IMG/VR virus record: IMGVR_UViG_2627853765_000005
Direction: 5' to 3' (one strand)
Length of the DNA stretch: 7,832 nucleotides
Source: a virus
Taxonomy: Duplodnaviria > Heunggongvirae > Uroviricota > Caudoviricetes
Shown here: positions 1-7,832 of the stretch, piece after piece
Numbering within the stretch: the stretch's first letter is position 1
Layout of the letters: every line of letters begins with the position of its first letter
The notes under the pieces: model-generated
Database searches by the model: none
What the model was told of the DNA's origin: nothing
What the model saw: only the letters and a program-made list of their open reading frames with translations
Position numbers and translations under genes: made by a program

Positions 1-28
1 ACTAAATCAGTAAGTTGGCAGCATTACC
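1..28 (-). mobile_element. IS1 copy, terminal 28 bp only (IRL end); rest lies left of the window
   Basis: Bases 1-28 match the right end of the complete IS1 (877-904) at 27 of 28 positions. The terminus reads GGTAATGCTGCC on the minus strand, a mix of the IRL and IRR consensus. Confidence 0.8.
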
Positions 29-151
29 AAAAAGGGTGAGCGATTTTTGATAGTTGAACCAGGCACTTTAAGTTTAACTAGGGCGTCATTATTTATTAAA
101 TTTTATAGACGCTATATATGGGTAGTAATATACATGGGTAATGACTCCAAA

Positions 152-849
152 TTATTGATAGTGTTTTATGTTCAGATAATGCCCGATGACCTTGTCATGC
201 AGCTCCACCGATTTTGAGAACGACAGCGACTTCCGTCCCAGCCGTGCCAGGTGCTGCCTCAGATTCAGGTTATGCCGCTCAATTCGCTGCGTATATCGCT
301 TGCTGATTACGTGCAGCTTTCCCTTCAGGCGGGATTCATACAGTGGCCAGCCATCCGTCATCCATATCACCACGTCAAAGGGTGACAGCAAGCTCATAAG
401 ACGCCCCAGCGTCGCCATAGTGCGTTCACCGAATACGTGCGCAACAACCGTCTTCCGGAGCCTGTCATACGCGTAAAACAGCCAGCGCTGGCGCGATTTA
501 GCCCCGACGTATCCCCACTGTTCGTCCATTTCCGCGCAGACGATGACGTCACTGCCCGGCTGTATGCGCGAGGTTACCGACTGCGGCCTGAGTTTTTTAA
601 GTGACGTAAAATCGTGTTGAGGCTAACGCCCATAATGCGTGCAGTTGCCCGGCATCCAACGCCATTCATGGCCATATCAATAATTTTCTGGTGCGTACCG
701 GGTTGAGAAGCGGTGTAAGTGAACTGCAGTTGCCATGTTTTACGGCAGTGAGAGCAGAGATAGCGCTGATGTCCGGCAGTGCTTTTGCCGTTACGCACCA
801 CCCCGTCAGTAGCTGAACAGGAGGGACAGCTGATAGAAACAGAAGCCAC
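152..849 (-). CDS. insB: IS1 InsAB' transposase made by programmed -1 frameshift at the A6C motif (insA frame 849-574, insB' frame continuing to 152)
   Basis: The insB' frame translates to ...[21 protein letters not shown]...[10 protein letters not shown], the InsB sequence. The AAAAAAC slip site sits at 592-598 (minus-strand sense). The insB' frame has an in-frame TAG at 623-625 upstream of the slip site, so an independent long InsB from the ATG at 653-655 is not possible in this copy. Confidence 0.85.
574..849 (-). CDS. insA: IS1 InsA (91 aa), transposition inhibitor and N-terminal part of the InsAB' transposase
   Basis: ORF translation [39 protein letters not shown]... is the InsA protein with its zinc-finger-like CxxC...CxxC and helix-turn-helix. 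This copy has the VSL variant. Confidence 0.95.
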
Positions 850-905
850 TGGAGCACCTCAAAAACACCATCATACACTAAATCAGTAAGTTGGCAGCAT
901 CACCG

Positions 906-962
906 AAGGACGGCAAGGACATTGTGCCCGATCGCATCCGTTCCGCGCTTGGGCTTGGCTGA
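906..962 (+). pseudogene. 3' remnant (18 codons, ...KDGKDIVPDRIRSALGLG*) of the gene upstream of gpE, truncated by IS1; possibly a tail tube (P2 FII-like) gene
   Basis: An open frame runs straight out of the IS1 boundary at 904/905 to a TGA at 960-962, just upstream of the gpE-like gene. In P2 gene order (FI-FII-E-E'-T-U-D) this position is FII. The frame choice and identity are inferred, not recognised. Confidence 0.3.
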
Positions 963-1017
963 TAAGTAATATGCTGGCGGCGCAGTGCGTCGCCTCTGAC
1001 TGAAAAGGAGACAACAG

Positions 1018-1392
1018 ATGAAAGACATCGATACTGAAACCCGGAATAACACCGTGGCGGATAATGTGACGGCAGTTGAGGATATGGCTGTCGAACGTGG
1101 CGTAAAACTGACCCGACCAATTGAGCGTGGTGGCGAAAAAATCACGTATGTGGAGATCACCGGGGCTATTGAGCAGGCTGGATCCCTGCGTGGTCTGTCG
1201 CTGTCTGATGTGCTGAATCTGAAAGCGGATACCATGTTCACGCTGTTGCCTCGCGTGACCTCGCCACGACTGGATGAAGTGATGATTAAAAAAATGTCGT
1301 CACGCGATTTTATTCAGTTGTGCGCTGTGGCTGTAAATTTTATGAGTGAGCCAGACTCTGGCGCGAAGAGCGTGCAGGAGACGGCAGCGTAA
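1018..1392 (+). CDS. Phage tail assembly chaperone, P2 gpE-like (124 aa)
   Basis: ATG at 1018 preceded by AAGGAG (1005-1010). The protein contains ...SLRGLSLSDVLNLKADTMFTLLPRV..., typical of P2 E-family chaperones, and sits immediately upstream of the tape measure gene. Confidence 0.85.
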   Translation: MKDIDTETRNNTVADNVTAVEDMAVERGVKLTRPIERGGEKITYVEITGAIEQAGSLRGLSLSDVLNLKADTMFTLLPRVTSPRLDEVMIKKMSSRDFIQLCAVAVNFMSEPDSGAKSVQETAA

Positions 1393-1556
1393 TCACCCTG
1401 GTGTGCTTTGAGCACATCGAAGATCTGGTGGCGGATATTGCCGCCATTTTTAACTGGTCGCCCGCCGAAATCTTCATGATGACGCCCTGCGAAGTGGTTA
1501 GCTGGCGTGAGCGAGCGGCACTTCGTAGCGGGAATGCAGACAATGAAGACTCTTGA
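1350..1556 (+). CDS. E' extension frame (-1 relative to gpE), expected to be expressed only as an E+E' fusion by programmed frameshift
   Basis: The -1 frame is open for 68 codons from 1350 to a TGA at 1554-1556 and has no start codon of its own. It encodes ...DLVADIAAIFNWSPAEIFMMTPCEVVSWRERAALRSGN..., overlaps the last 13 codons of gpE and the first codons of the tape measure gene, as in P2 E/E'/T. The slip site was not identified. Confidence 0.5.
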   Translation, partial: ARLWREERAGDGSVITLVCFEHIEDLVADIAAIFNWSPAEIFMMTPCEVVSWRERAALRSGNADNEDS

Positions 1557-4350
1557 TATCCGGGTCGCTTTCAGCGCCGTTGACAGGCTGACCCGGCCTG
1601 CCGAAAACGCCCGCCGCCTGATGGGGCAGTTTGGTGACTCCATCCAGCGAACGCAGGGGGCGATCAAAAATCTCGAGCGTCAGGCGCGATCATTTGAGCG
1701 CGCCCGTGACGCTGTCAGTAAAGCGGATGCGGGCATCGTGAAAGCACGACGCCAGCTTAACGCCCTTAATCAGTTACAACGCACGGGTACAGTGCTCAGC
1801 GAAAAACAACAAAAGCTGATGCAGCAGTTAAGCACCCGGCTTGAACGCCTGAATGAATCGCGCACACGGGAAATTCAGAAAATGCGGGAGCTTGGCGGAG
1901 AGCTGAAACGCCACGGCATTTCCCTGACAGGCAGCGATAACACCATCCAGCAGGCCATCAGACGCACCGAACAGTACAATAACCAGCTTGAACGCGAACG
2001 GCAGGCGCTTGCGCGTGTAACACGGGCGCGTGAGCGGTATTCGCGCGCGCAGGAAACAGCGGGAAAACTGAAAACAGGTGGTGCGCTGGCAATTGGTGCG
2101 GCAGCGGCGGGCGGCTATGCTGCCGGGCGTTTTTTGCAGCCTGCGATCGGGTTCGGCAAAGAGATGTTCCGCGTTCAGGCACTGACGCGAATCGACCAGA
2201 ACAGCCCGCAGTTTAAGGCGCTGCGTGAGCAGGCGTTAAAACTTGGCTCTGAAACGCAGTTCACCGCAGGCGATGCCGCCAGTGGACAGGCATTTCTTGC
2301 AATGGCTGGCTTTACACCACAGGCCATTCAGGCTGCGCTCCCTGGCGTACTGAGCATGGCAACGGCTGGCGGTATGGACCTCGGTGAGACGGCGGATATT
2401 GGCTCAAATATTCTGACGCAGTTCGGTCTTTCTGCTGACCAGATGGACCGGGTCGGCGACACACTCACCGCAGCGTTTACCCGTACCAACACTGACCTTC
2501 GCGCACTGGGTGAAACCATGAAATATGCAGGTCCGGTGGCGGGTAAGCTGGGAATATCTCTGGAGCAGGCCGCAGCGATGGCGGGCGTGCTGGCGAATAT
2601 GGGTATCAGGGGGAGTGATGCTGGTACGGCAATGCGTGCCAGCCTGGCTCGTCTGGCATCACCGCCAAAGGCGGCAGCAGAGGCGCTGAAAGAGCTTGGC
2701 GTGTCTGTCTCGGATGCCGGGGGCAAAATGCGCCCGATGGAGGATGTGCTGGCTGACCTTTATAAAGCTACCCGCAAATACGGGGAAGTTGACCGGGTAT
2801 CGTTCTTTAAGGACATTGCCGGAGAAGAGGCTTTCACATCATTTATGGCCCTCGTTGATGCGGCAGGTTACGGCTCCTTACCCAAACTGAGAAAAGAACT
2901 TGAAGGCGCGCGCGGTGAGGCTGAACGCACGGCAAAGGTTATGGCCAACAACCTTGACGGCGATCTGAAATCACTCAGCAGTGCATGGGAAGGGTTGCGC
3001 ATCCGCATTGCAGATCTGATTGACGGTCCGCTGCGTTCTGTCACGCAGTGGCTCACGCGTGTGGTATCAAAGGTGACGGCGCTGGCGCAGGCCCATCCCG
3101 CACTGACGCGCCAGCTACTGATTGCAGGCGGTGCATTGCTGGCAATGACTGCAACGGTTGGCTCGTTGTCGCTGGCTATTGGTGTGCTTGCTGGCCCGCT
3201 GGCAAAACTGCGTCTTGGTTTTTCCCTCCTGACCGGATCAATGAATGCTGTCAGGGTTCTGCCAGCACTATGGGGAATGGTGACGGGTTCCGTTTCTTTA
3301 CTGGGAGGCGCTATCGGGGCGTTGTTCAGTCCGGTTGGTCTTATCGTGGCTGCGCTTGCCGGAGCTGCCGTTCTTATCTGGAAATACTGGGATCCCATCA
3401 GGGCATTTTTTGCCGGGGTGTTCAGCGGGATTATGGAAAGGCTGACCCCGTTGCGCGAAACATTTGAACGGTTTGGTCCTGTTTTTGACGCAATCGGGAG
3501 TGGGATCAGCCAGGTGTTTAACTGGTTTAAATCGCTGCTGTCACCGATGGAGTCCAGCAAGGAAACTCTGGATAAATGTACCAGTGCTGGCGAGATATTC
3601 GGTAACGTTCTTGGCGGTGCGTTACAACTTGTTCTGACACCTGCAAAAATGTTGCTGGATACGCTGGCGTGGATACTTGAAAAGCTTGGTGTGCTTCCGG
3701 ATGAAGCGGAAAGGGCGCGCAAGAAAATCGAAGACGCACAGCGTGCGGCCATTCTTCAGGACAAGGTTGCCTTGCTTCAGGGGGACCTGGCGAAAATCAA
3801 TCCGCCGAAGCCTGTGGAAAATGGCAATGGCACCGGAGGTGATAACCCCAAAGACAATAAACCGCTCACAGACAGCAATACCGGTACGCTGCGCAGACTC
3901 AGCAAAATTGCTGATAACACAGGTAAGCTGGTTGAGGAGACGAAAAAACGCATTGGCCCCGGCGATATTGTCTTTAAAAACCTGCCCCGAGCACTTGCTG
4001 TTCGTGGGGAGTGGCAGGAGCGGAAGATTGCGCAGGTCAGTAAGCCTGCCCCCGCAATTAATATCACACCCGTGGTTCCGGCTCCGCTGCCTCCGGCGCT
4101 GGTCCCTGTTGTTGCGGCCAGCTCCCGCCCGGTGGCGGAGGCTATACGATCTCCAGTGGCATCAGTTCCTGTAACTTCCCGTAACCGGGAGCCTGTTGCC
4201 TCCGGATTTGGTGGTGAAATTCATGTTCATCTGCATAACGTTGTTACGCAGAATCCCCGCGAACTGGCGAAACTGGTCGGTGAAATGGTCAGGGCAGAAA
4301 TGGAACGGCGCGCCCGTGCCGGGCGTGGCTGTTTTTACGATAAAGATTGA
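1543..4350 (+). CDS. Phage tail tape measure protein (P2 gpT-like, about 935 aa)
   Basis: Very long ORF directly after the chaperone pair. It has a coiled-coil-like N-terminal region rich in Q/R/E/L, a long Gly/Ala-rich hydrophobic stretch (about 3091-3390) and a Pro-rich C-terminal stretch. Start is chosen at the ATG at 1543 (GGGA 9 nt upstream); the ATG at 1534 and the GTG at 1507 are alternatives. Confidence 0.9.
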   Translation: MKTLDIRVAFSAVDRLTRPAENARRLMGQFGDSIQRTQGAIKNLERQARSFERARDAVSKADAGIVKARRQLNALNQLQRTGTVLSEKQQKLMQQLSTRLERLNESRTREIQKMRELGGELKRHGISLTGSDNTIQQAIRRTEQYNNQLERERQALARVTRARERYSRAQETAGKLKTGGALAIGAAAAGGYAAGRFLQPAIGFGKEMFRVQALTRIDQNSPQFKALREQALKLGSETQFTAGDAASGQAFLAMAGFTPQAIQAALPGVLSMATAGGMDLGETADIGSNILTQFGLSADQMDRVGDTLTAAFTRTNTDLRALGETMKYAGPVAGKLGISLEQAAAMAGVLANMGIRGSDAGTAMRASLARLASPPKAAAEALKELGVSVSDAGGKMRPMEDVLADLYKATRKYGEVDRVSFFKDIAGEEAFTSFMALVDAAGYGSLPKLRKELEGARGEAERTAKVMANNLDGDLKSLSSAWEGLRIRIADLIDGPLRSVTQWLTRVVSKVTALAQAHPALTRQLLIAGGALLAMTATVGSLSLAIGVLAGPLAKLRLGFSLLTGSMNAVRVLPALWGMVTGSVSLLGGAIGALFSPVGLIVAALAGAAVLIWKYWDPIRAFFAGVFSGIMERLTPLRETFERFGPVFDAIGSGISQVFNWFKSLLSPMESSKETLDKCTSAGEIFGNVLGGALQLVLTPAKMLLDTLAWILEKLGVLPDEAERARKKIEDAQRAAILQDKVALLQGDLAKINPPKPVENGNGTGGDNPKDNKPLTDSNTGTLRRLSKIADNTGKLVEETKKRIGPGDIVFKNLPRALAVRGEWQERKIAQVSKPAPAINITPVVPAPLPPALVPVVAASSRPVAEAIRSPVASVPVTSRNREPVASGFGGEIHVHLHNVVTQNPRELAKLVGEMVRAEMERRARAGRGCFYDKD

Positions 4351-4356
4351 GGAGTC

Positions 4357-4851
4357 ATGGCCATGATGATGATCTACGGCATGTTTGTTTTTGAGCTGCG
4401 CACGCTGCCGCATCAGCAGTTACAGCAAAACAAAAGCTGGCGGCATGTGAAAAATGAACGCGTTAACCGTTCAGCAAGCTGGCAGTATATCGGTGCAGGT
4501 GATGATCGCATCGTTCTTTCTGGTGTGCTTTATCCTGAAATTACAGGTGGCGAAGTGTCGCTGTCGCTGCTGACCACGCAGGCGTATACAGGACTACCCT
4601 GGCCTTTGATTGATGGCGTCGGGCAGATTTACGGCATGTATGTCCTGACTGAAACGAATACGACCCGCTCCGAGTTTGATCGCTACGGTAAGGCGAAAAA
4701 GATAGAATTTTCACTGACTCTTGAACGCTGTGATGAGGATTTGCGGGAGCGCCTGCAATCCTCATCGTTCAGTGATATGCTGTCCGGCTTCAAAGATAAG
4801 GTGACATCATCTCTTAACAGCGCGGCCAGTTCAGTTAAAGGGCTGTTCTGA
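4357..4851 (+). CDS. Phage tail protein, P2 gpU-like (164 aa)
   Basis: Translation ...GMFVFELRTLPHQQLQQ...LSGVLYPEITGG...WPLIDGVGQIYGMYVL...KKIEFSLTLER... matches the P2 gpU family pattern and follows the tape measure gene as in P2. GAGGAG at 4349-4354; the ATG at 4363 is an alternative start with better spacing. Confidence 0.85.
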   Translation: MAMMMIYGMFVFELRTLPHQQLQQNKSWRHVKNERVNRSASWQYIGAGDDRIVLSGVLYPEITGGEVSLSLLTTQAYTGLPWPLIDGVGQIYGMYVLTETNTTRSEFDRYGKAKKIEFSLTLERCDEDLRERLQSSSFSDMLSGFKDKVTSSLNSAASSVKGLF

Positions 4852-4860
4852 TTTAACACA

Positions 4861-4890
4861 AAAACCGCTAATGGTCAGATTAGCGGTTTT
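4861..4890. terminator. Bidirectional rho-independent terminator hairpin between convergent gpU and the invertase gene
   Basis: Perfect inverted repeat AAAACCGCTAAT (4861-4872) / ATTAGCGGTTTT (4879-4890) with a 6-nt loop GGTCAG, followed by TTTTCATTTT on the plus strand and a U-rich run on the minus strand. The right arm overlaps the last codons of the invertase. Confidence 0.65.
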
Positions 4891-5479
4891 CATTTTCCTG
4901 AGTCTGCCCGGTTGTTTCTTCAGTCTGTATATCGCCTACAGGGTGATAACGATAAATCGTCGATGTGCCAATGCCGTAAATTATTGCCAGTTGTTTTCTG
5001 TCGTGCCCGTTTTTGATTAGCCTTGCTATTTGCTCATGCTGTTCTTTTGTCAGCTTCGGTCGACGTCCGCCTGTGCGCCCCCTTGCGCGCGCTGCCGCCA
5101 GCCCGGCCAGTGTACGTTCAACAATTAATTCACGTTCCATTTCAGCCAGGGCACCCATCACGTGGAAGAAAAAACGCCCCATTGGAGAAGATGTGTCTAT
5201 GCTGTCGGTCAGACTGCGAAAATTAATCCCTCGCTCCCGTAGTTCCCCGACGAGAGAAATCAGATGTTTCATGCTTCGCCCGAGGCGATCCAGTTTCCAG
5301 ACAACCAGCGTGTCACCTTTTTGAAGGCGCTTTAAAGCGCGTTTTAATCCCGGTCGGTCTGTCTTTGTCCCGCTTAATTTATCTTCAAATATTTGTTCAC
5401 ATCCTGCACAAACAAGAGCGTTTCGTTGCAGGTCTGTATTCTGGTCATTTGTTGATACCCTTACATAGCCAATCAGCAC
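4880..5479 (-). CDS. Serine DNA invertase of the Gin/Pin/Cin/Hin family (about 199 aa)
   Basis: From the GTG at 5479 (GGGAG 7 nt upstream) the protein begins (M)LIGYVRVSTNDQNTDLQRNAL..., the canonical invertase N-terminus with the catalytic serine. It continues ...GDTLVVWKLDRLGRSMKHL...MGRFFFHVMGALAEMERELI... and ends with a helix-turn-helix (...QLAIIYGIGTSTIYRY...). Confidence 0.93.
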   Translation of the reverse strand: MLIGYVRVSTNDQNTDLQRNALVCAGCEQIFEDKLSGTKTDRPGLKRALKRLQKGDTLVVWKLDRLGRSMKHLISLVGELRERGINFRSLTDSIDTSSPMGRFFFHVMGALAEMERELIVERTLAGLAAARARGRTGGRRPKLTKEQHEQIARLIKNGHDRKQLAIIYGIGTSTIYRYHPVGDIQTEETTGQTQENENR

Positions 5480-5533
5480 ACTGAATCTCCCGTCCAAAAG
5501 CGCAAATCATGCCATGCAGGCCAGAAACGGCCA

Positions 5534-5559
5534 TTATTTAAAACCTCGGTTTACAGGAA
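5534..5559. promoter_or_regulatory. gix/pix/cix-type 26-bp recombination (crossover) site for the invertase
   Basis: The minus-strand reading TTCCTGTAAACC-GA-GGTTTTAAATAA matches the Mu gixL sequence as I recall it at 24 of 26 positions, with the central GA dinucleotide at 5546-5547. It lies between the invertase start and the fibre cassette, and the fibre reading frame opens inside it. Confidence 0.8.
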
Positions 5560-5583
5560 ACGGTAAACAGGGCTGGTAACGCC

Positions 5584-6420
5584 GTGCAAAAAAATGGCGA
5601 TACCTTGTCCGGTGGGCTTACTTTTGAAAATGACTCAATCCTTGCCTGGATTCGAAATACTGACTGGGCGAAGATTGGATTTAAAAATGATGCCGATGGT
5701 GACACTGATTCATACATGTGGTTTGAAACAGGCGACAACGGCAATGAATATTTCAAATGGAGAAGCCGCCAGAGCACCACAACAAAAGACCTGATGACGC
5801 TGAAATGGGATGCACTAAATATTCTTGTTAATGCTGTCATTAATGGCAGTCTTGGAGTTGGTTCGACGAATGCGTTAGGTGGTAGCTCTATTGTTCTTGG
5901 TGATAATGACACCGGATTTAAACAGAATGGAGACGGTATTCTGGATGTTTATGCTAATAGTCAGCGTGTATTCCGCTTTCAGAATGGAGTGGCTATTGCT
6001 TTTAAAAATATTCAGGCCGGGGATGGTAAAAAATTCACGCTATCCAGCTCCAACAACTTCACAAAGAATGCAACGTTTAATTTATGGGGTGCTTCAACCC
6101 GTCCAGTAGTTGCAGAGTTAGGCGATGAGGCAGGATGGCATTTCTATAGCCAGCGAAATACAGATAACTCGGTAATATTTTCTGTTAACGGTCAGATACA
6201 GCCCAGCAACTGGGGGAATTTTGATTCACGCTATGTAAAAGATGTTCGCCTGGGTACGCGTGTTGTTCAATTGATGGCGCGTGGTGGTCGTTATGAAAAA
6301 GCCGGACACGCAATTACCGGATTAAGAATCATTGGTGAAGTAGATGGCGATGATGAAGCCATCTTCAGACCAATACAAAAATACATCAATGGCACATGGT
6401 ATAACGTCGCACAGGTGTAA
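5584..6420 (+). CDS. Tail fibre C-terminal variable-domain cassette (Mu S / P1 S family); likely the silent copy in the present orientation
   Basis: The frame is open from 5542, immediately after a TAA inside the gix site; the first in-frame start is the GTG at 5584, with no convincing ribosome-binding site. The C-terminus ...RPIQKYINGTWYNVAQV resembles the second cassette on the opposite strand. It is followed directly by a tail fibre assembly gene. Confidence 0.8.
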   Translation: MQKNGDTLSGGLTFENDSILAWIRNTDWAKIGFKNDADGDTDSYMWFETGDNGNEYFKWRSRQSTTTKDLMTLKWDALNILVNAVINGSLGVGSTNALGGSSIVLGDNDTGFKQNGDGILDVYANSQRVFRFQNGVAIAFKNIQAGDGKKFTLSSSNNFTKNATFNLWGASTRPVVAELGDEAGWHFYSQRNTDNSVIFSVNGQIQPSNWGNFDSRYVKDVRLGTRVVQLMARGGRYEKAGHAITGLRIIGEVDGDDEAIFRPIQKYINGTWYNVAQV

Positions 6421-6423
6421 ATT

Positions 6424-6951
6424 ATGCAGCATTTAAAAAATATTAAGTCCGGAAATCCAAAAACAAAAGAACAATATCAGCTAACAAAGAATTTTGATGT
6501 TATCTGGTTATGGTCCGAAGACGGTAAAAACTGGTATGAGGAAGTAAATAACTTTCAGGACGACACCATAAAGATTGTATACGACGAAAATAATATTATT
6601 GTTGCCATAACCAAAGATGCCTCAACGCTTAATCCCGAAGGCTTTAGTGTCGTTGAGATTCCAGATATAACAGCCAATCGTCGCGCCGATGATTCAGGGA
6701 AGTGGATGTTTAAGGACGGAACTGTGGTTAAGCGGATTTATACAGCAGACGAACAGCAACAACAGGCCGAATCACAAAAGGTCGCGTTGCTTTCTGAAGC
6801 TGAAAGCGTTATTCAGCCACTGGAACGCGCTGTCAGGCTGAATATGGCGATGGATGAGGAACGCACACGACTGGAGTCATGGGAACGCTACAGCGTTCTG
6901 GTCAGCCGTGTGGATACAGCAAATCCCGAATGGCCACAAAAGCCTGAGTAA
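6424..6951 (+). CDS. Tail fibre assembly protein (Tfa / Mu U family, 175 aa)
   Basis: Protein [24 protein letters not shown]...[30 protein letters not shown]... is Tfa-like. It starts 4 nt after the fibre cassette stop and is paralogous to the minus-strand ORF at 6980-7513. Confidence 0.85.
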
Positions 6952-6956
6952 AAATT

Positions 6957-6976
6957 AAGGCCCAATATCGGGCCTT
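6957..6976. terminator. Hairpin between the convergent tail fibre assembly genes, a possible bidirectional terminator
   Basis: AAGGCCC (6957-6963) / GGGCCTT (6970-6976) with a 6-nt loop. It is flanked by an A/T-rich run on the minus-strand downstream side; the plus-strand U tract is weak. Confidence 0.4.
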
Positions 6977-6979
6977 CTC

Positions 6980-7513
6980 TCATTCTGGTTGTTCGGGAAA
7001 CGTTACTGGCAGGCTGGAGGTGTCTGTAGATTCGACTTTCTGCGCATAGAGCATCCACTCGGTTAATTTTTGTTTATTCTCGTCGGAAATGATGCCCAGC
7101 CGTAGCTGTGAGTCCCATAGCTGGGTTTTATCCCTGACAAGTTGCAACAGGCTTTGCTTTTCATTTTCCGCTTGTTGCCTCTGCTCTTCCTCGGTATAAG
7201 TTCGCTTTATCACTACGCCATCTTTGAACAACCATTTCCCCGAAATATCAGCCCGGCGATTTGCTGTAATATCAGGTAATTCAACGACGCTTGCGCCTTC
7301 CGGATTAATTGCTGAAACATCCTTTTCAATACAAATAATAACGCCGTTATGGTCATAGACCATTTTCAAAGTGTCTGGCTGGAAATTCTTTTGCTCCTCA
7401 TACCAGTTTTTTCCATCATCTGAATAAAGCCATTTGATGTTAAATTGCTTTGTTAGCTGGTATTGCTCTTTTGTTTTAGGGTTGCCAGCAGTAATGTTTT
7501 TTAAGTGCATCAT
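6980..7513 (-). CDS. Tail fibre assembly protein, second copy (Tfa / Mu U' equivalent, 177 aa)
   Basis: Protein [24 protein letters not shown]...[30 protein letters not shown]... is a paralogue of the 6424-6951 product. GGGGAG lies 9 nt upstream of the ATGATG start at 7513. Confidence 0.85.
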   Translation of the reverse strand: MMHLKNITAGNPKTKEQYQLTKQFNIKWLYSDDGKNWYEEQKNFQPDTLKMVYDHNGVIICIEKDVSAINPEGASVVELPDITANRRADISGKWLFKDGVVIKRTYTEEEQRQQAENEKQSLLQLVRDKTQLWDSQLRLGIISDENKQKLTEWMLYAQKVESTDTSSLPVTFPEQPE

Positions 7514-7515
7514 CG

Positions 7516-7802
7516 TTAAATACTCCCCGCGTTATACCACGTCCCATTAATGCAATACTGAATTGGCCTTGCCTGTGTTGTATCAATTAATTCATCACGG
7601 TTTCCGTTAACTGAACCCGTAACGACATAACCTGACCTGTCAGACCAGCCGGGACCATTCCATGTCTGAACAGATGACAGACCGCCAAGGCGAATACCTG
7701 TAATAAACCTTGAGTTACATTCTGCCCGCGTATATGCACCAACATCTCCCGCTGAAGGTTTTCGTGTCGTGGTATAGAAATCTGACCAACCTAATTCAAC
7801 CC
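7516..7802 (-). pseudogene. Second tail fibre C-terminal cassette (Sv' equivalent), 3' part only; its 5' part is interrupted by IS1
   Basis: My manual minus-strand translation is open for 96 codons from the IS1 junction to a TAA at 7516-7518: ...GAYTRAECNSRFITGIRLGGLSSVQTWNGPGW...QARPIQYCINGTWYNAGSI*. The C-terminus parallels ...RPIQKYINGTWYNVAQV of the plus-strand cassette. There is no start codon before IS1 begins at 7803. Confidence 0.75.
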
Positions 7803-7832
7803 GGTAATGACTCCAACTTATTGATAGTGTTT
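7803..7832 (-). mobile_element. IS1 copy, first 30 bp only (IRR end); rest lies right of the window
   Basis: GGTAATGACTCCAACTTATTGATAGTGTTT matches the IS1 IRR terminus and 137-166 at 29 of 30 positions. It is in the same orientation as the complete copy. Confidence 0.85.

What the first reader, a model, noticed from the sequence alone, without database searches (positions are those of the whole stretch)
5534..5583. Fibre reading frame opens exactly at the crossover centre, with a stop codon in the non-coding half-site
The cassette frame is closed by a TAA at 5539-5541 in the left half of the gix-like site and opens at 5542, four nt before the central TC/GA dinucleotide. There is no ATG and no good ribosome-binding site before the GTG at 5584. 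This is what a silent cassette looks like: it would be expressed only after inversion fuses it to the constant 5' part of the fibre gene. An imperfect copy of the right half-site follows at one helical turn (GGTTTACAGG at 5548-5557, GGTAAACAGG at 5562-5571).
Basis: seen in the sequence. Interest (0 to 1): 0.5.

Follow-up and report, generated by a model that had tools for sequence, protein, structure and literature searches.

The report
Silent tail-fibre cassette at invertase site

Summary
All sequence facts in the finding hold. Window 5534-5559 is a 26-bp Gin/PinB-type crossover site. It has 2 mismatches to Mu gix and 1 to the published PinB bixR; none is expected by chance. An in-frame TAA at 5539-5541 closes the frame of the fibre cassette 5542-6420. 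In intact E. coli relatives a second, inverted site lies in the same codon phase inside a 661-aa fibre gene. Flipped versions (E. coli NU14, several Shigella boydii contigs) carry exactly reciprocal half-site combinations and a 716-aa fusion whose C-terminus is identical to the window cassette. One S. boydii assembly holds both orientations. Both invertase-side junctions are common in complete E. coli genomes (225 and 377). Three corrections apply:
- The TAA is not a general mark of silent cassettes. It depends on one variable base, was present in 30 of 73 surveyed sites, and is absent in Mu, P1 and e14.
- The "second half-site copy" is 14 bp away, not one helical turn, and is only coding sequence of this cassette type.
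- A weak Shine-Dalgarno-like AGGG does precede the GTG, which is an internal valine codon in full-length homologues.
In this IS1-riddled Shigella prophage remnant the other cassette is broken by IS1, so the silent cassette is the only intact one. This is already known biology.

The parts
5534..5559 (.). 26-bp invertase-proximal crossover site (bixR/gixR type): outer half-site TTATTTAAAACC, centre TC (5546-5547), inner half-site GGTTTACAGGAA
   Evidence: 2 mismatches to Mu gix, 0 expected by chance. 1 mismatch to published bixR. Natural recombinants limit the exchange to 5543-5554.
5539..5541 (+). In-frame TAA within the outer half-site; closes the cassette frame 2 codons before the crossover codon CTC (5545-5547)
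   Evidence: Created by the CC->TT difference from Mu gix. Also present in bixR (ATC TAA) and in 30 of 73 surveyed sites.
5542..6420 (+). Variable cassette A: C-terminal (receptor-binding) part of a P2 H-type tail fibre, silent in this orientation. The GTG at 5584 is an internal Val codon.
   Evidence: From the crossover codon onward it is identical to the C-terminal 291 residues of the 716-aa fused fibre in S. boydii CP049283. That fusion is 82.5% identical to P2 H over its full length. Pfam Gp34_trimer.
6424..6951 (+). Tail fibre assembly (chaperone) gene belonging to cassette A
   Evidence: Pfam Caudo_TAP, E 4e-35. About 92% nt identity to P2 G.
6980..7513 (-). Tail fibre assembly gene belonging to cassette B
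   Evidence: Pfam Caudo_TAP, E 1e-36.
7516..7802 (-). 3' remainder of cassette B (the cassette joined to the constant region in this orientation), cut by IS1
   Evidence: Collinear with L001 up to 12004. The same IS1 junction occurs in S. boydii contigs L009-L017.
7803..7832 (-). End of an IS1 element inserted in cassette B
   Evidence: The homologous 768-bp IS1 in L003 (15003-15770) has a 10-bp overlap of target sequence. The rest of cassette B, the second site and the constant region lie beyond it in S. boydii chromosome L009.
4880..5479 (-). Serine DNA invertase (Gin/PinB type), GTG start, transcribed away from the invertible segment
   Evidence: Pfam Resolvase + HTH_7. 80% identical to Gin, 77% to PinE, 72% to Cin. 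PDB Gin 3UJ3/4M6F, E about 1e-100.
5390..5461 (-). Presumed recombinational enhancer (Fis-binding sis equivalent), nt 19-90 of the invertase gene
   Evidence: The first 110 nt are identical to Mu gin. The region aligns with the enhancer annotated in the P1 record at cin nt 19-90. Function is inferred.
5480..5533 (.). 54-bp spacer between invertase start and site. It holds a 10-codon mini-ORF (ATG 5509 to TAA 5541) in the cassette frame.
   Evidence: The spacing is 53-55 bp in all 73 surveyed loci. The homologous ATG/GTG in Mu and e14 reads through into the silent cassette. No sigma-70 consensus was found by the simple scan.

Best explanation
Window 5534-5559 is the invertase-proximal crossover site of a Din-family (Gin/Cin/Pin/Hin; here PinB-type) DNA inversion switch. 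The switch sits in a P2-family (Xuanwuvirus/P88-like) prophage remnant, most likely in Shigella boydii. The adjacent serine invertase (5479-4880, minus strand) pairs this site with an inverted partner site inside the tail fibre gene. It cuts both at the central TC/GA dinucleotide and flips the intervening segment, which is about 2.7 kb, or 3.46 kb with the IS1. That fuses the constant 5' two-thirds of the fibre gene (about 425 codons) in frame to either cassette A (5542-6420, P2 H-like) or cassette B, each with its own assembly chaperone. In the window's orientation cassette A is parked next to the invertase. It has no constant part and no start codon of its own, so it is silent. The in-frame TAA is a by-product of a T at a variable position of the outer half-site. 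Because IS1 has broken cassette B, the expressed fibre gene is truncated in this orientation, and the silent cassette is the only intact one. The prophage is also damaged elsewhere (IS1 in the tail tube gene), so the switch probably still flips but no longer matters for making phage. Shown: the site, the frame match, the reciprocal recombinants and both orientations in nature. Inferred: Fis/enhancer dependence, lack of stand-alone expression, and that the window's own genome still has the partner site.
For: - Site match.
- Partner site in the same codon phase inside the 661-aa fibre gene of intact E. coli relatives (L001 12413-12438).
- Reciprocal half-site exchange. Window/UTI89/L001 have TTATTTAAAACC-TC-GGTTTACAGGAA on the invertase side and TTATCGAATACC-TC-GGTTTACGAGAA on the constant side. 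NU14, L003, L011 and L012 have the two swapped combinations.
- UTI89 and NU14 carry the same prophage at the same locus in opposite orientations, 661-aa against 716-aa fibre.
- Census of complete E. coli genomes: window-type invertase junction in 225, flipped junction in 377.
- S. boydii 600657 assembly. The chromosome is collinear with window 136-7832 at 99.88%, with the partner site about 420 bp beyond the IS1. An extra 26.7-kb contig has 100%/99.98% identical flanks and only the segment flipped.
- The fusion's C-terminus is identical to the window cassette.
- Invertase family and identity of its 5' end to Mu gin.
- Published PinB bix sites and experimentally shown inversion in P2-like E. 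coli prophages (PMC4272514).
Against: - Only one site lies in the window. The source genome itself was not found, so the presence of the partner site and constant region in that genome is inferred from near-identical S. boydii genomes.
- The window's left end (yccE fragment between IS1 ends) shows extra rearrangement not seen in those genomes.
- No expression data exist.
- A weak SD-like AGGG precedes GTG 5584, and automated pipelines annotate the 278-aa ORF as a gene.
- The two-orientation assembly could in principle reflect two copies rather than a mixed population.
Confidence: 0.93

Rival explanations
1. The 278-aa ORF 5584-6420 is an independently translated gene starting at GTG 5584, as automated annotation has it, rather than a silent cassette.
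For: PGAP annotates it as 'phage tail fiber protein' or 'hypothetical protein' in E. coli and Shigella. An AGGG 11 nt upstream gives an anti-SD duplex of -6.4 kcal/mol, comparable to real genes in the window.
Against: - The GTG is an internal Val codon (..GNAVQKNG..) in P2 H, Mu S and the 716-aa fusion.
- The frame is continuous with the constant region after inversion.
- No promoter-like site was found, and the neighbouring invertase is transcribed divergently.
- The product would lack the ~425-aa N-terminal part that is common to both fused forms. That part presumably attaches the fibre to the baseplate (established knowledge of these fibres, not tested here).
- The SD spacing is too long.
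Confidence: 0.04
2. The site is a fossil. In this IS1-degraded prophage the switch no longer recombines, and the cassette is permanently silent.
For: IS1 insertions lie in the tail tube gene and in cassette B, and further IS1 rearrangement is seen at the window's left end. The partner site is outside the window, and the source genome was not recovered.
Against: - The invertase ORF is intact and identical to a protein found on more than 1000 contigs.
- The site is identical to that of E. coli prophages seen in both orientations.
- Shigella contigs that share this exact IS1 insertion occur in both orientations, so inversion happened after the insertion.
- One S. boydii assembly holds both orientations.
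Confidence: 0.08
3. The in-frame TAA in the outer half-site is a selected translational barrier. It stops ribosomes that start at the conserved upstream ATG (5509) from reading into the silent cassette. It is not an incidental base choice.
For: - The two differences from Mu gix (CC->TT) are exactly those that create the stop.
- The same stop position recurs in two dissimilar half-site types (TTAT[C/T]TAAAACC and AAGACTAAAACG), in 30 of 73 sites.
- In Mu and e14 the homologous ATG/GTG is in frame with the silent cassette.
Against: - 31 of 73 sites, including the experimentally studied Mu, P1 and e14 systems, leave the frame open for 12 or more codons.
- The stop needs only one T at a position that varies freely.
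- The half-site is A/T-rich, so TAA is easy to get.
- The surveyed loci are closely related and not independent.
- The mini-ORF ATG has no SD (-0.1 kcal/mol).
Confidence: 0.1

Closest known systems
Shigella B segment / PinB inversion system (GenBank D00660; Tominaga, Ikemizu & Enomoto 1991, J Bacteriol 173:4079; sites listed in PMC3241671 Table 3)
   Same: The constant-side recombinant site (TTCCTGTAAACC GA GGTATTCGATAA) is identical to bixL. The window site differs from bixR by one base and shares its in-frame TAA. The host genus is the same. Both use a Gin-like invertase beside a Mu-G-like segment.
   Different: The published bixL and bixR both have the TTCCTGTAAACC inner half-site. Here cassette B carries TTCTCGTAAACC, so the second cassette differs. 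Here an IS1 sits in cassette B. D00660 itself could not be read with these tools, so identity of the invertase with PinB is untested.
Phage Mu G segment / Gin / gix
   Same: The gene order is the same: constant part, site, Sv, U, U', S'v, site, invertase. The 26-bp site differs at 2 positions. There is a 54-bp spacer. The first 110 nt of the invertase gene, including the enhancer region, are identical. Cassette A begins with the same sequence as Mu Sv.
   Different: The constant region and prophage backbone are P2-family, not Mu. Mu gixR has no in-frame stop, and its frame stays open 107 codons upstream with in-frame ATG/GTG. The invertase DNA-binding domain is closer to Hin than to Gin.
Phage P2 tail fibre gene H (non-invertible)
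   Same: The Hc-cassette A fusion is 82.5% identical to P2 H over its full length. P2 H carries a relic site, TTATCGAATATCTCGGTTTACAGGAA, at the homologous codon.
   Different: The P2 region examined (I-H-G-fun(Z)) shows no second cassette or invertase next to H. That the P2 fibre is therefore fixed rests on established knowledge of P2, not on a test here.
P1 C segment/Cin/cix and e14 P segment/PinE/pix
   Same: They use the same mechanism and the same codon phase at the crossover (..Y/N-L-GL..). The invertases are 72-77% identical.
   Different: The core dinucleotide is TT/AA rather than TC/GA. cin is transcribed toward its segment. There is no in-frame stop in the invertase-proximal half-site.

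Membership tests
Din-family DNA inversion systems (Gin/Cin/Pin/Hin/PinB) | Small serine recombinase with N-terminal resolvase catalytic domain (Ser9) and C-terminal helix-turn-helix | tested here: met
   Pfam Resolvase 1.4e-50 and HTH_7 4e-13. S9 and the other invariant residues align with Gin, Cin and PinE. PDB Gin E about 1e-100.
Din-family DNA inversion systems (Gin/Cin/Pin/Hin/PinB) | 26-bp crossover site made of two imperfectly symmetric 12-bp half-sites around a 2-bp core | tested here: met
   5534-5559 has 2 mismatches to gix and 1 to bixR, with 0 of 200 shuffles matching.
Din-family DNA inversion systems (Gin/Cin/Pin/Hin/PinB) | Two sites in inverted orientation with identical core dinucleotides flanking the invertible segment | tested here: inconclusive
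   Met in intact E. coli relatives (L001 9735-9760 and 12413-12438, both TC/GA) and in the S. boydii chromosome L009. The window contains only one site, and its own genome was not found.
Din-family DNA inversion systems (Gin/Cin/Pin/Hin/PinB) | Recombinational enhancer (Fis sites) within the 5' end of the invertase gene | tested here: met
   Met by sequence only. The first 110 nt are identical to Mu gin and align to the enhancer annotated in P1 cin nt 19-90. Fis binding and stimulation cannot be tested here.
Din-family DNA inversion systems (Gin/Cin/Pin/Hin/PinB) | The segment actually inverts by exchange at the core | tested here: met
   Natural reciprocal recombinants limit the exchange to site positions 10-21. 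UTI89 and NU14 differ in orientation. Both junctions are frequent in E. coli. Both orientations occur in one S. boydii assembly.
Split tail-fibre gene with alternative C-terminal cassettes (Mu S/S' type) | Constant 5' part and both cassettes share the reading frame across the crossover, and each cassette has its own assembly chaperone | tested here: met
   The codon CTC spans the core in both sites. The 661-aa and 716-aa fusions are annotated in relatives. The fusion C-terminus equals the window cassette. There are two Caudo_TAP genes.
PinB/B-segment system specifically (D00660) | Sequence identity of invertase and segment with the published locus | not testable with these tools
   D00660 and the 1991 paper are not held. 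Only the two published 26-bp sites could be compared: one is identical and one differs by 1 nt.

The most novel reading that the evidence does not exclude
The in-frame TAA inside the outer half-site is a recurrently selected translational insulator. It keeps the parked cassette untranslated from a conserved upstream ATG, and it evolved independently in at least two half-site lineages.
Probability: 0.1. Interest if true: 0.3.

Novelty: already known. Interest (0 to 1): 0.1.

Why it matters
It matters little for discovery. Tail-fibre switching by Gin/Cin/Pin/PinB invertases has been textbook material since the 1980s. The near-identical Shigella PinB sites were published in 1991, and inversion in P2-like E. 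coli prophages has been shown experimentally.

The practical value is for annotation:
- The 278-aa 'hypothetical protein / tail fibre protein' that pipelines call here is a parked gene fragment, not a stand-alone gene.
- A 26.7-kb 'unnamed plasmid' in an S. boydii assembly is most simply the alternative orientation of this chromosomal region.

It is also a tidy natural example of an inversion switch that apparently keeps flipping inside a decaying prophage, between an IS1-broken and an intact fibre gene.

Tried and rejected
- An exact search for the window's right IS1 junction in the species-representative genomes found nothing. No complete E. coli genome carries it either, so the source genome was not identified. 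The exact cassette ORF points to S. boydii.
- The junction ORF taken straight from the window is not on record, because it has a non-standard first codon. With M as first residue it retrieved 13 contigs.
- The original PinB paper (PMC208056) is not held.
- The simple promoter/terminator scan of 5380-5700 found nothing on either strand. The invertase promoter is therefore unlocated, and the absence of a cassette promoter is only weak evidence.
- I considered whether the tail block FI-U, inverted relative to P2, reflects a second inversion. I rejected this: there are no meaningful flanking inverted repeats, and the same order is standard in the genus Xuanwuvirus.
- I considered the second 'half-site copy' as an accessory binding site and rejected it.
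- I considered the TAA as a defining feature of silent cassettes and rejected it.

Full report
OBSERVATION. All coordinates in the finding are correct. TAA at 5539-5541 is in frame with GTG 5584, and there is no ATG/GTG/TTG between them. The frame reads *-N-L-G-L-Q-E-T-V-N-R-A-G-N-A-V-Q-K-N-G... The stretch 5534-5559 (TTATTTAAAACC TC GGTTTACAGGAA) matches the Mu gix sequence with 2 mismatches. No such match occurred in 200 dinucleotide-preserving shuffles. GGTTTACAGG (5548-5557) and GGTAAACAGG (5562-5571) are both there, but they are 14 bp apart, not one helical turn.

CONTEXT. The window is a P2-family prophage remnant riddled with IS1.
- An IS1 end lies at 1-29.
- A 107-bp fragment of the chromosomal gene yccE lies at 30-136.
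- A full IS1 at 137-904 cuts the tail tube gene.
- The prophage genes follow: gpE-like, tape measure (1507-4350), gpU (4357-4851), a strong bidirectional terminator hairpin (4861-4890), and a serine invertase on the minus strand (5479-4880, GTG start).
- After a 54-bp spacer come the site, cassette A (5542-6420), its assembly gene (6424-6951), a second assembly gene on the minus strand (7513-6980), and the 3' end of cassette B (7802-7516).
- Another IS1 end (7803-7832) cuts cassette B.
Window 902-7802 is 99.6% identical to intact prophages in E. coli such as UTI89 and GDSC2BY4G. The exact 278-aa ORF is recorded mainly from Shigella boydii.

THE PARTNER SITE AND THE FRAME. In the intact E. coli loci a second site, TTATCGAATACC TC GGTTTACGAGAA, lies in inverted orientation inside a 661-aa tail fibre gene (L001 12413-12438). 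There the gene reads ..V-A-A-V-I-E-Y-L-G-L-R-E.., with the codon CTC spanning the central TC. In the window the cassette reads ..A-I-I-*-N-L-G-L-Q-E.., with CTC in the same phase.

DIRECT EVIDENCE OF INVERSION.
- A contig of S. boydii 600657 (CP049283, L003) carries the same two IS1 insertions, but the segment is flipped. Its two sites are exact reciprocal recombinants. The constant-side outer half (TTATCGAATACC) is now joined to cassette A's inner half (GGTTTACAGGAA). The invertase-side outer half (TTATTTAAAACC) is joined to cassette B's inner half (GGTTTACGAGAA).
- The polymorphisms in the half-sites confine the exchange to site positions 10-21 (window 5543-5554), which include the central dinucleotide.
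- From the crossover codon onward, the resulting 716-aa fibre is identical to the window's cassette. Over its full length it is 82.5% identical to P2 gpH.
- The uropathogenic strains UTI89 and NU14 carry the same prophage at the same position in opposite orientations.
- Among complete E. coli genomes, the window-type invertase junction is present in 225 and the flipped junction in 377.
- Among Shigella contigs that share the exact IS1/cassette-B junction, both orientations occur: window type in L009 and L013-L017, flipped in L010-L012. So inversion happened after the IS1 insertion.
- The chromosome of S. boydii 600657 (L009) is collinear with window 136-7832 at 99.88%. It has the rest of cassette B, the partner site and the constant region about 420 bp beyond the IS1.
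- The extra 26.7-kb contig of the same assembly has flanks 100% and 99.98% identical to the chromosome, with only the 3.46-kb segment flipped. The simplest reading is that both orientations were present in the sequenced DNA.

THE RECOMBINASE.
- The invertase has Resolvase and HTH_7 domains.
- It is 80% identical to Gin, 77% to PinE and 72% to Cin, and matches the Gin crystal structures at E about 1e-100.
- Its first 110 nt, including the GTG start, are identical to Mu gin. They align with the enhancer annotated in the P1 record at cin nt 19-90. The Fis-dependent enhancer is therefore presumably present at about 5390-5461, but its function is inferred.
- The spacing from invertase start to site is 53-55 bp in all 73 surveyed relatives.
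- The C-terminal DNA-binding domain is closer to Hin than to Gin.

WHAT IS KNOWN. Table 3 of PMC3241671 lists the sites of the Shigella PinB system (GenBank D00660; Tominaga et al. 1991). The published bixL is identical to the constant-side/cassette-A recombinant site found here. The published bixR differs from the window site by one base. Read on the window's strand, bixR is ATC TAA AAC CTC, which has the same in-frame TAA. Inversion in P2-like prophages of E. coli has been shown experimentally (PMC4272514). The feature is therefore a member of a long-known system.

(1) The stop codon is not a general signature of a silent cassette.
- In Mu gixR, P1 cixL and e14 pixR the frame stays open 107, 12 and 21 codons upstream of the crossover codon. 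In Mu and e14 there are in-frame ATG/GTG codons, which gene finders have used as starts.
- Across 73 invertase-proximal sites from viral contigs, the TAA at this position occurs in 30, a stop four codons upstream occurs in 12, and 31 stay open for 17-31 codons. These samples are not independent.
- The stop depends on a T at site position 6, which varies among related sites.
(2) The 'imperfect copy' of the half-site is the coding sequence E-T-V-N-R-A of this cassette type, which is shared with Mu Sv.
- It degrades to 3-6 mismatches in cassettes that encode ETVNK, ETVNQ or ELGTSGEK and in pix-type cassettes, whose sites are intact.
- The 10-mer is at chance frequency in the window.
(3) A weak Shine-Dalgarno-like AGGG lies 11 nt before GTG 5584 (-6.4 kcal/mol, within the range of real genes here). 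The better argument against a stand-alone gene is that this GTG is an internal valine codon in P2 H, Mu S and the fused fibre.

CONSEQUENCE IN THIS GENOME. In the window's orientation the constant region is joined to the IS1-broken cassette B, which gives a 570-aa ORF running into IS1 in L009. The silent cassette A is therefore the only intact tip. The prophage also has an IS1 in its tail tube gene, so the switch probably has no phenotypic effect. That is an inference.

VERDICT. The system is already known, and interest is low.

Noticed in passing
window 1-29, 137-904, 7803-7832: There are three IS1 copies or ends. The full copy cuts the tail tube (FII) gene, and the right one cuts cassette B with a ~10-bp target overlap. 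This fits a Shigella genome.
   Followed up: yes
window 30-136: A 107-bp fragment of the chromosomal core gene yccE sits between two IS1 ends. This junction is absent from the related S. boydii contigs, so the source genome has an extra IS1-mediated rearrangement.
   Followed up: partly
L009 and L010 (S. boydii 600657, CP049281 and CP049283): The record labelled 'plasmid unnamed' (26.7 kb, linear) duplicates a chromosomal prophage region. Its flanks are 100%/99.98% identical to the chromosome, and only the invertible segment is flipped. It is most simply an assembly by-product of a population mixed for orientation, not a plasmid.
   Followed up: partly
window 4880-5479 (minus strand): The invertase looks mosaic. 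The N-terminal ~120 residues and the first 110 nt are essentially Mu Gin. The DNA-binding helix-turn-helix (GIGTSTIYRY) is closer to Hin. It also has a 16-residue acidic/polar C-terminal tail that Gin, Cin and PinE lack.
   Followed up: partly
window 4861-4890: A perfect 12-bp stem hairpin (-15.7 kcal/mol, z -5.4) lies between the convergent gpU and invertase genes. It is likely a bidirectional terminator.
   Followed up: partly
window 5509-5541: A ten-codon mini-ORF (MPCRPETAII*) in the cassette frame ends at the half-site TAA. It has no SD. The homologous ATG in Mu and e14 reads through into the silent cassette, and gene finders have used such codons as starts (Mup52, stfE).
   Followed up: partly
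L007 1505-1530 (phage P2 gene H): P2 H carries a relic crossover site (TTATCGAATATCTCGGTTTACAGGAA, 3 mismatches to gix) at the homologous codon. Nucleotide similarity to the window starts exactly there. The P2 region fetched (I-H-G-fun(Z)) shows no invertase or second cassette next to H.
   Followed up: partly
L001/L002 2200-9052; L098: The tail genes FI-FII-E-T-U are transcribed divergently from gene D and convergently with the invertase, unlike the P2 order. This is the standard order of the genus Xuanwuvirus. No flanking inverted repeats were found.
   Followed up: yes
L001 9785-10621, L002 9785-10621, L008 4783-5280: Annotation pipelines call the parked cassette a stand-alone CDS ('hypothetical protein', 'phage tail fiber protein') or a pseudogene, depending on orientation. 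This is a systematic annotation artefact of invertible fibre genes.
   Followed up: partly
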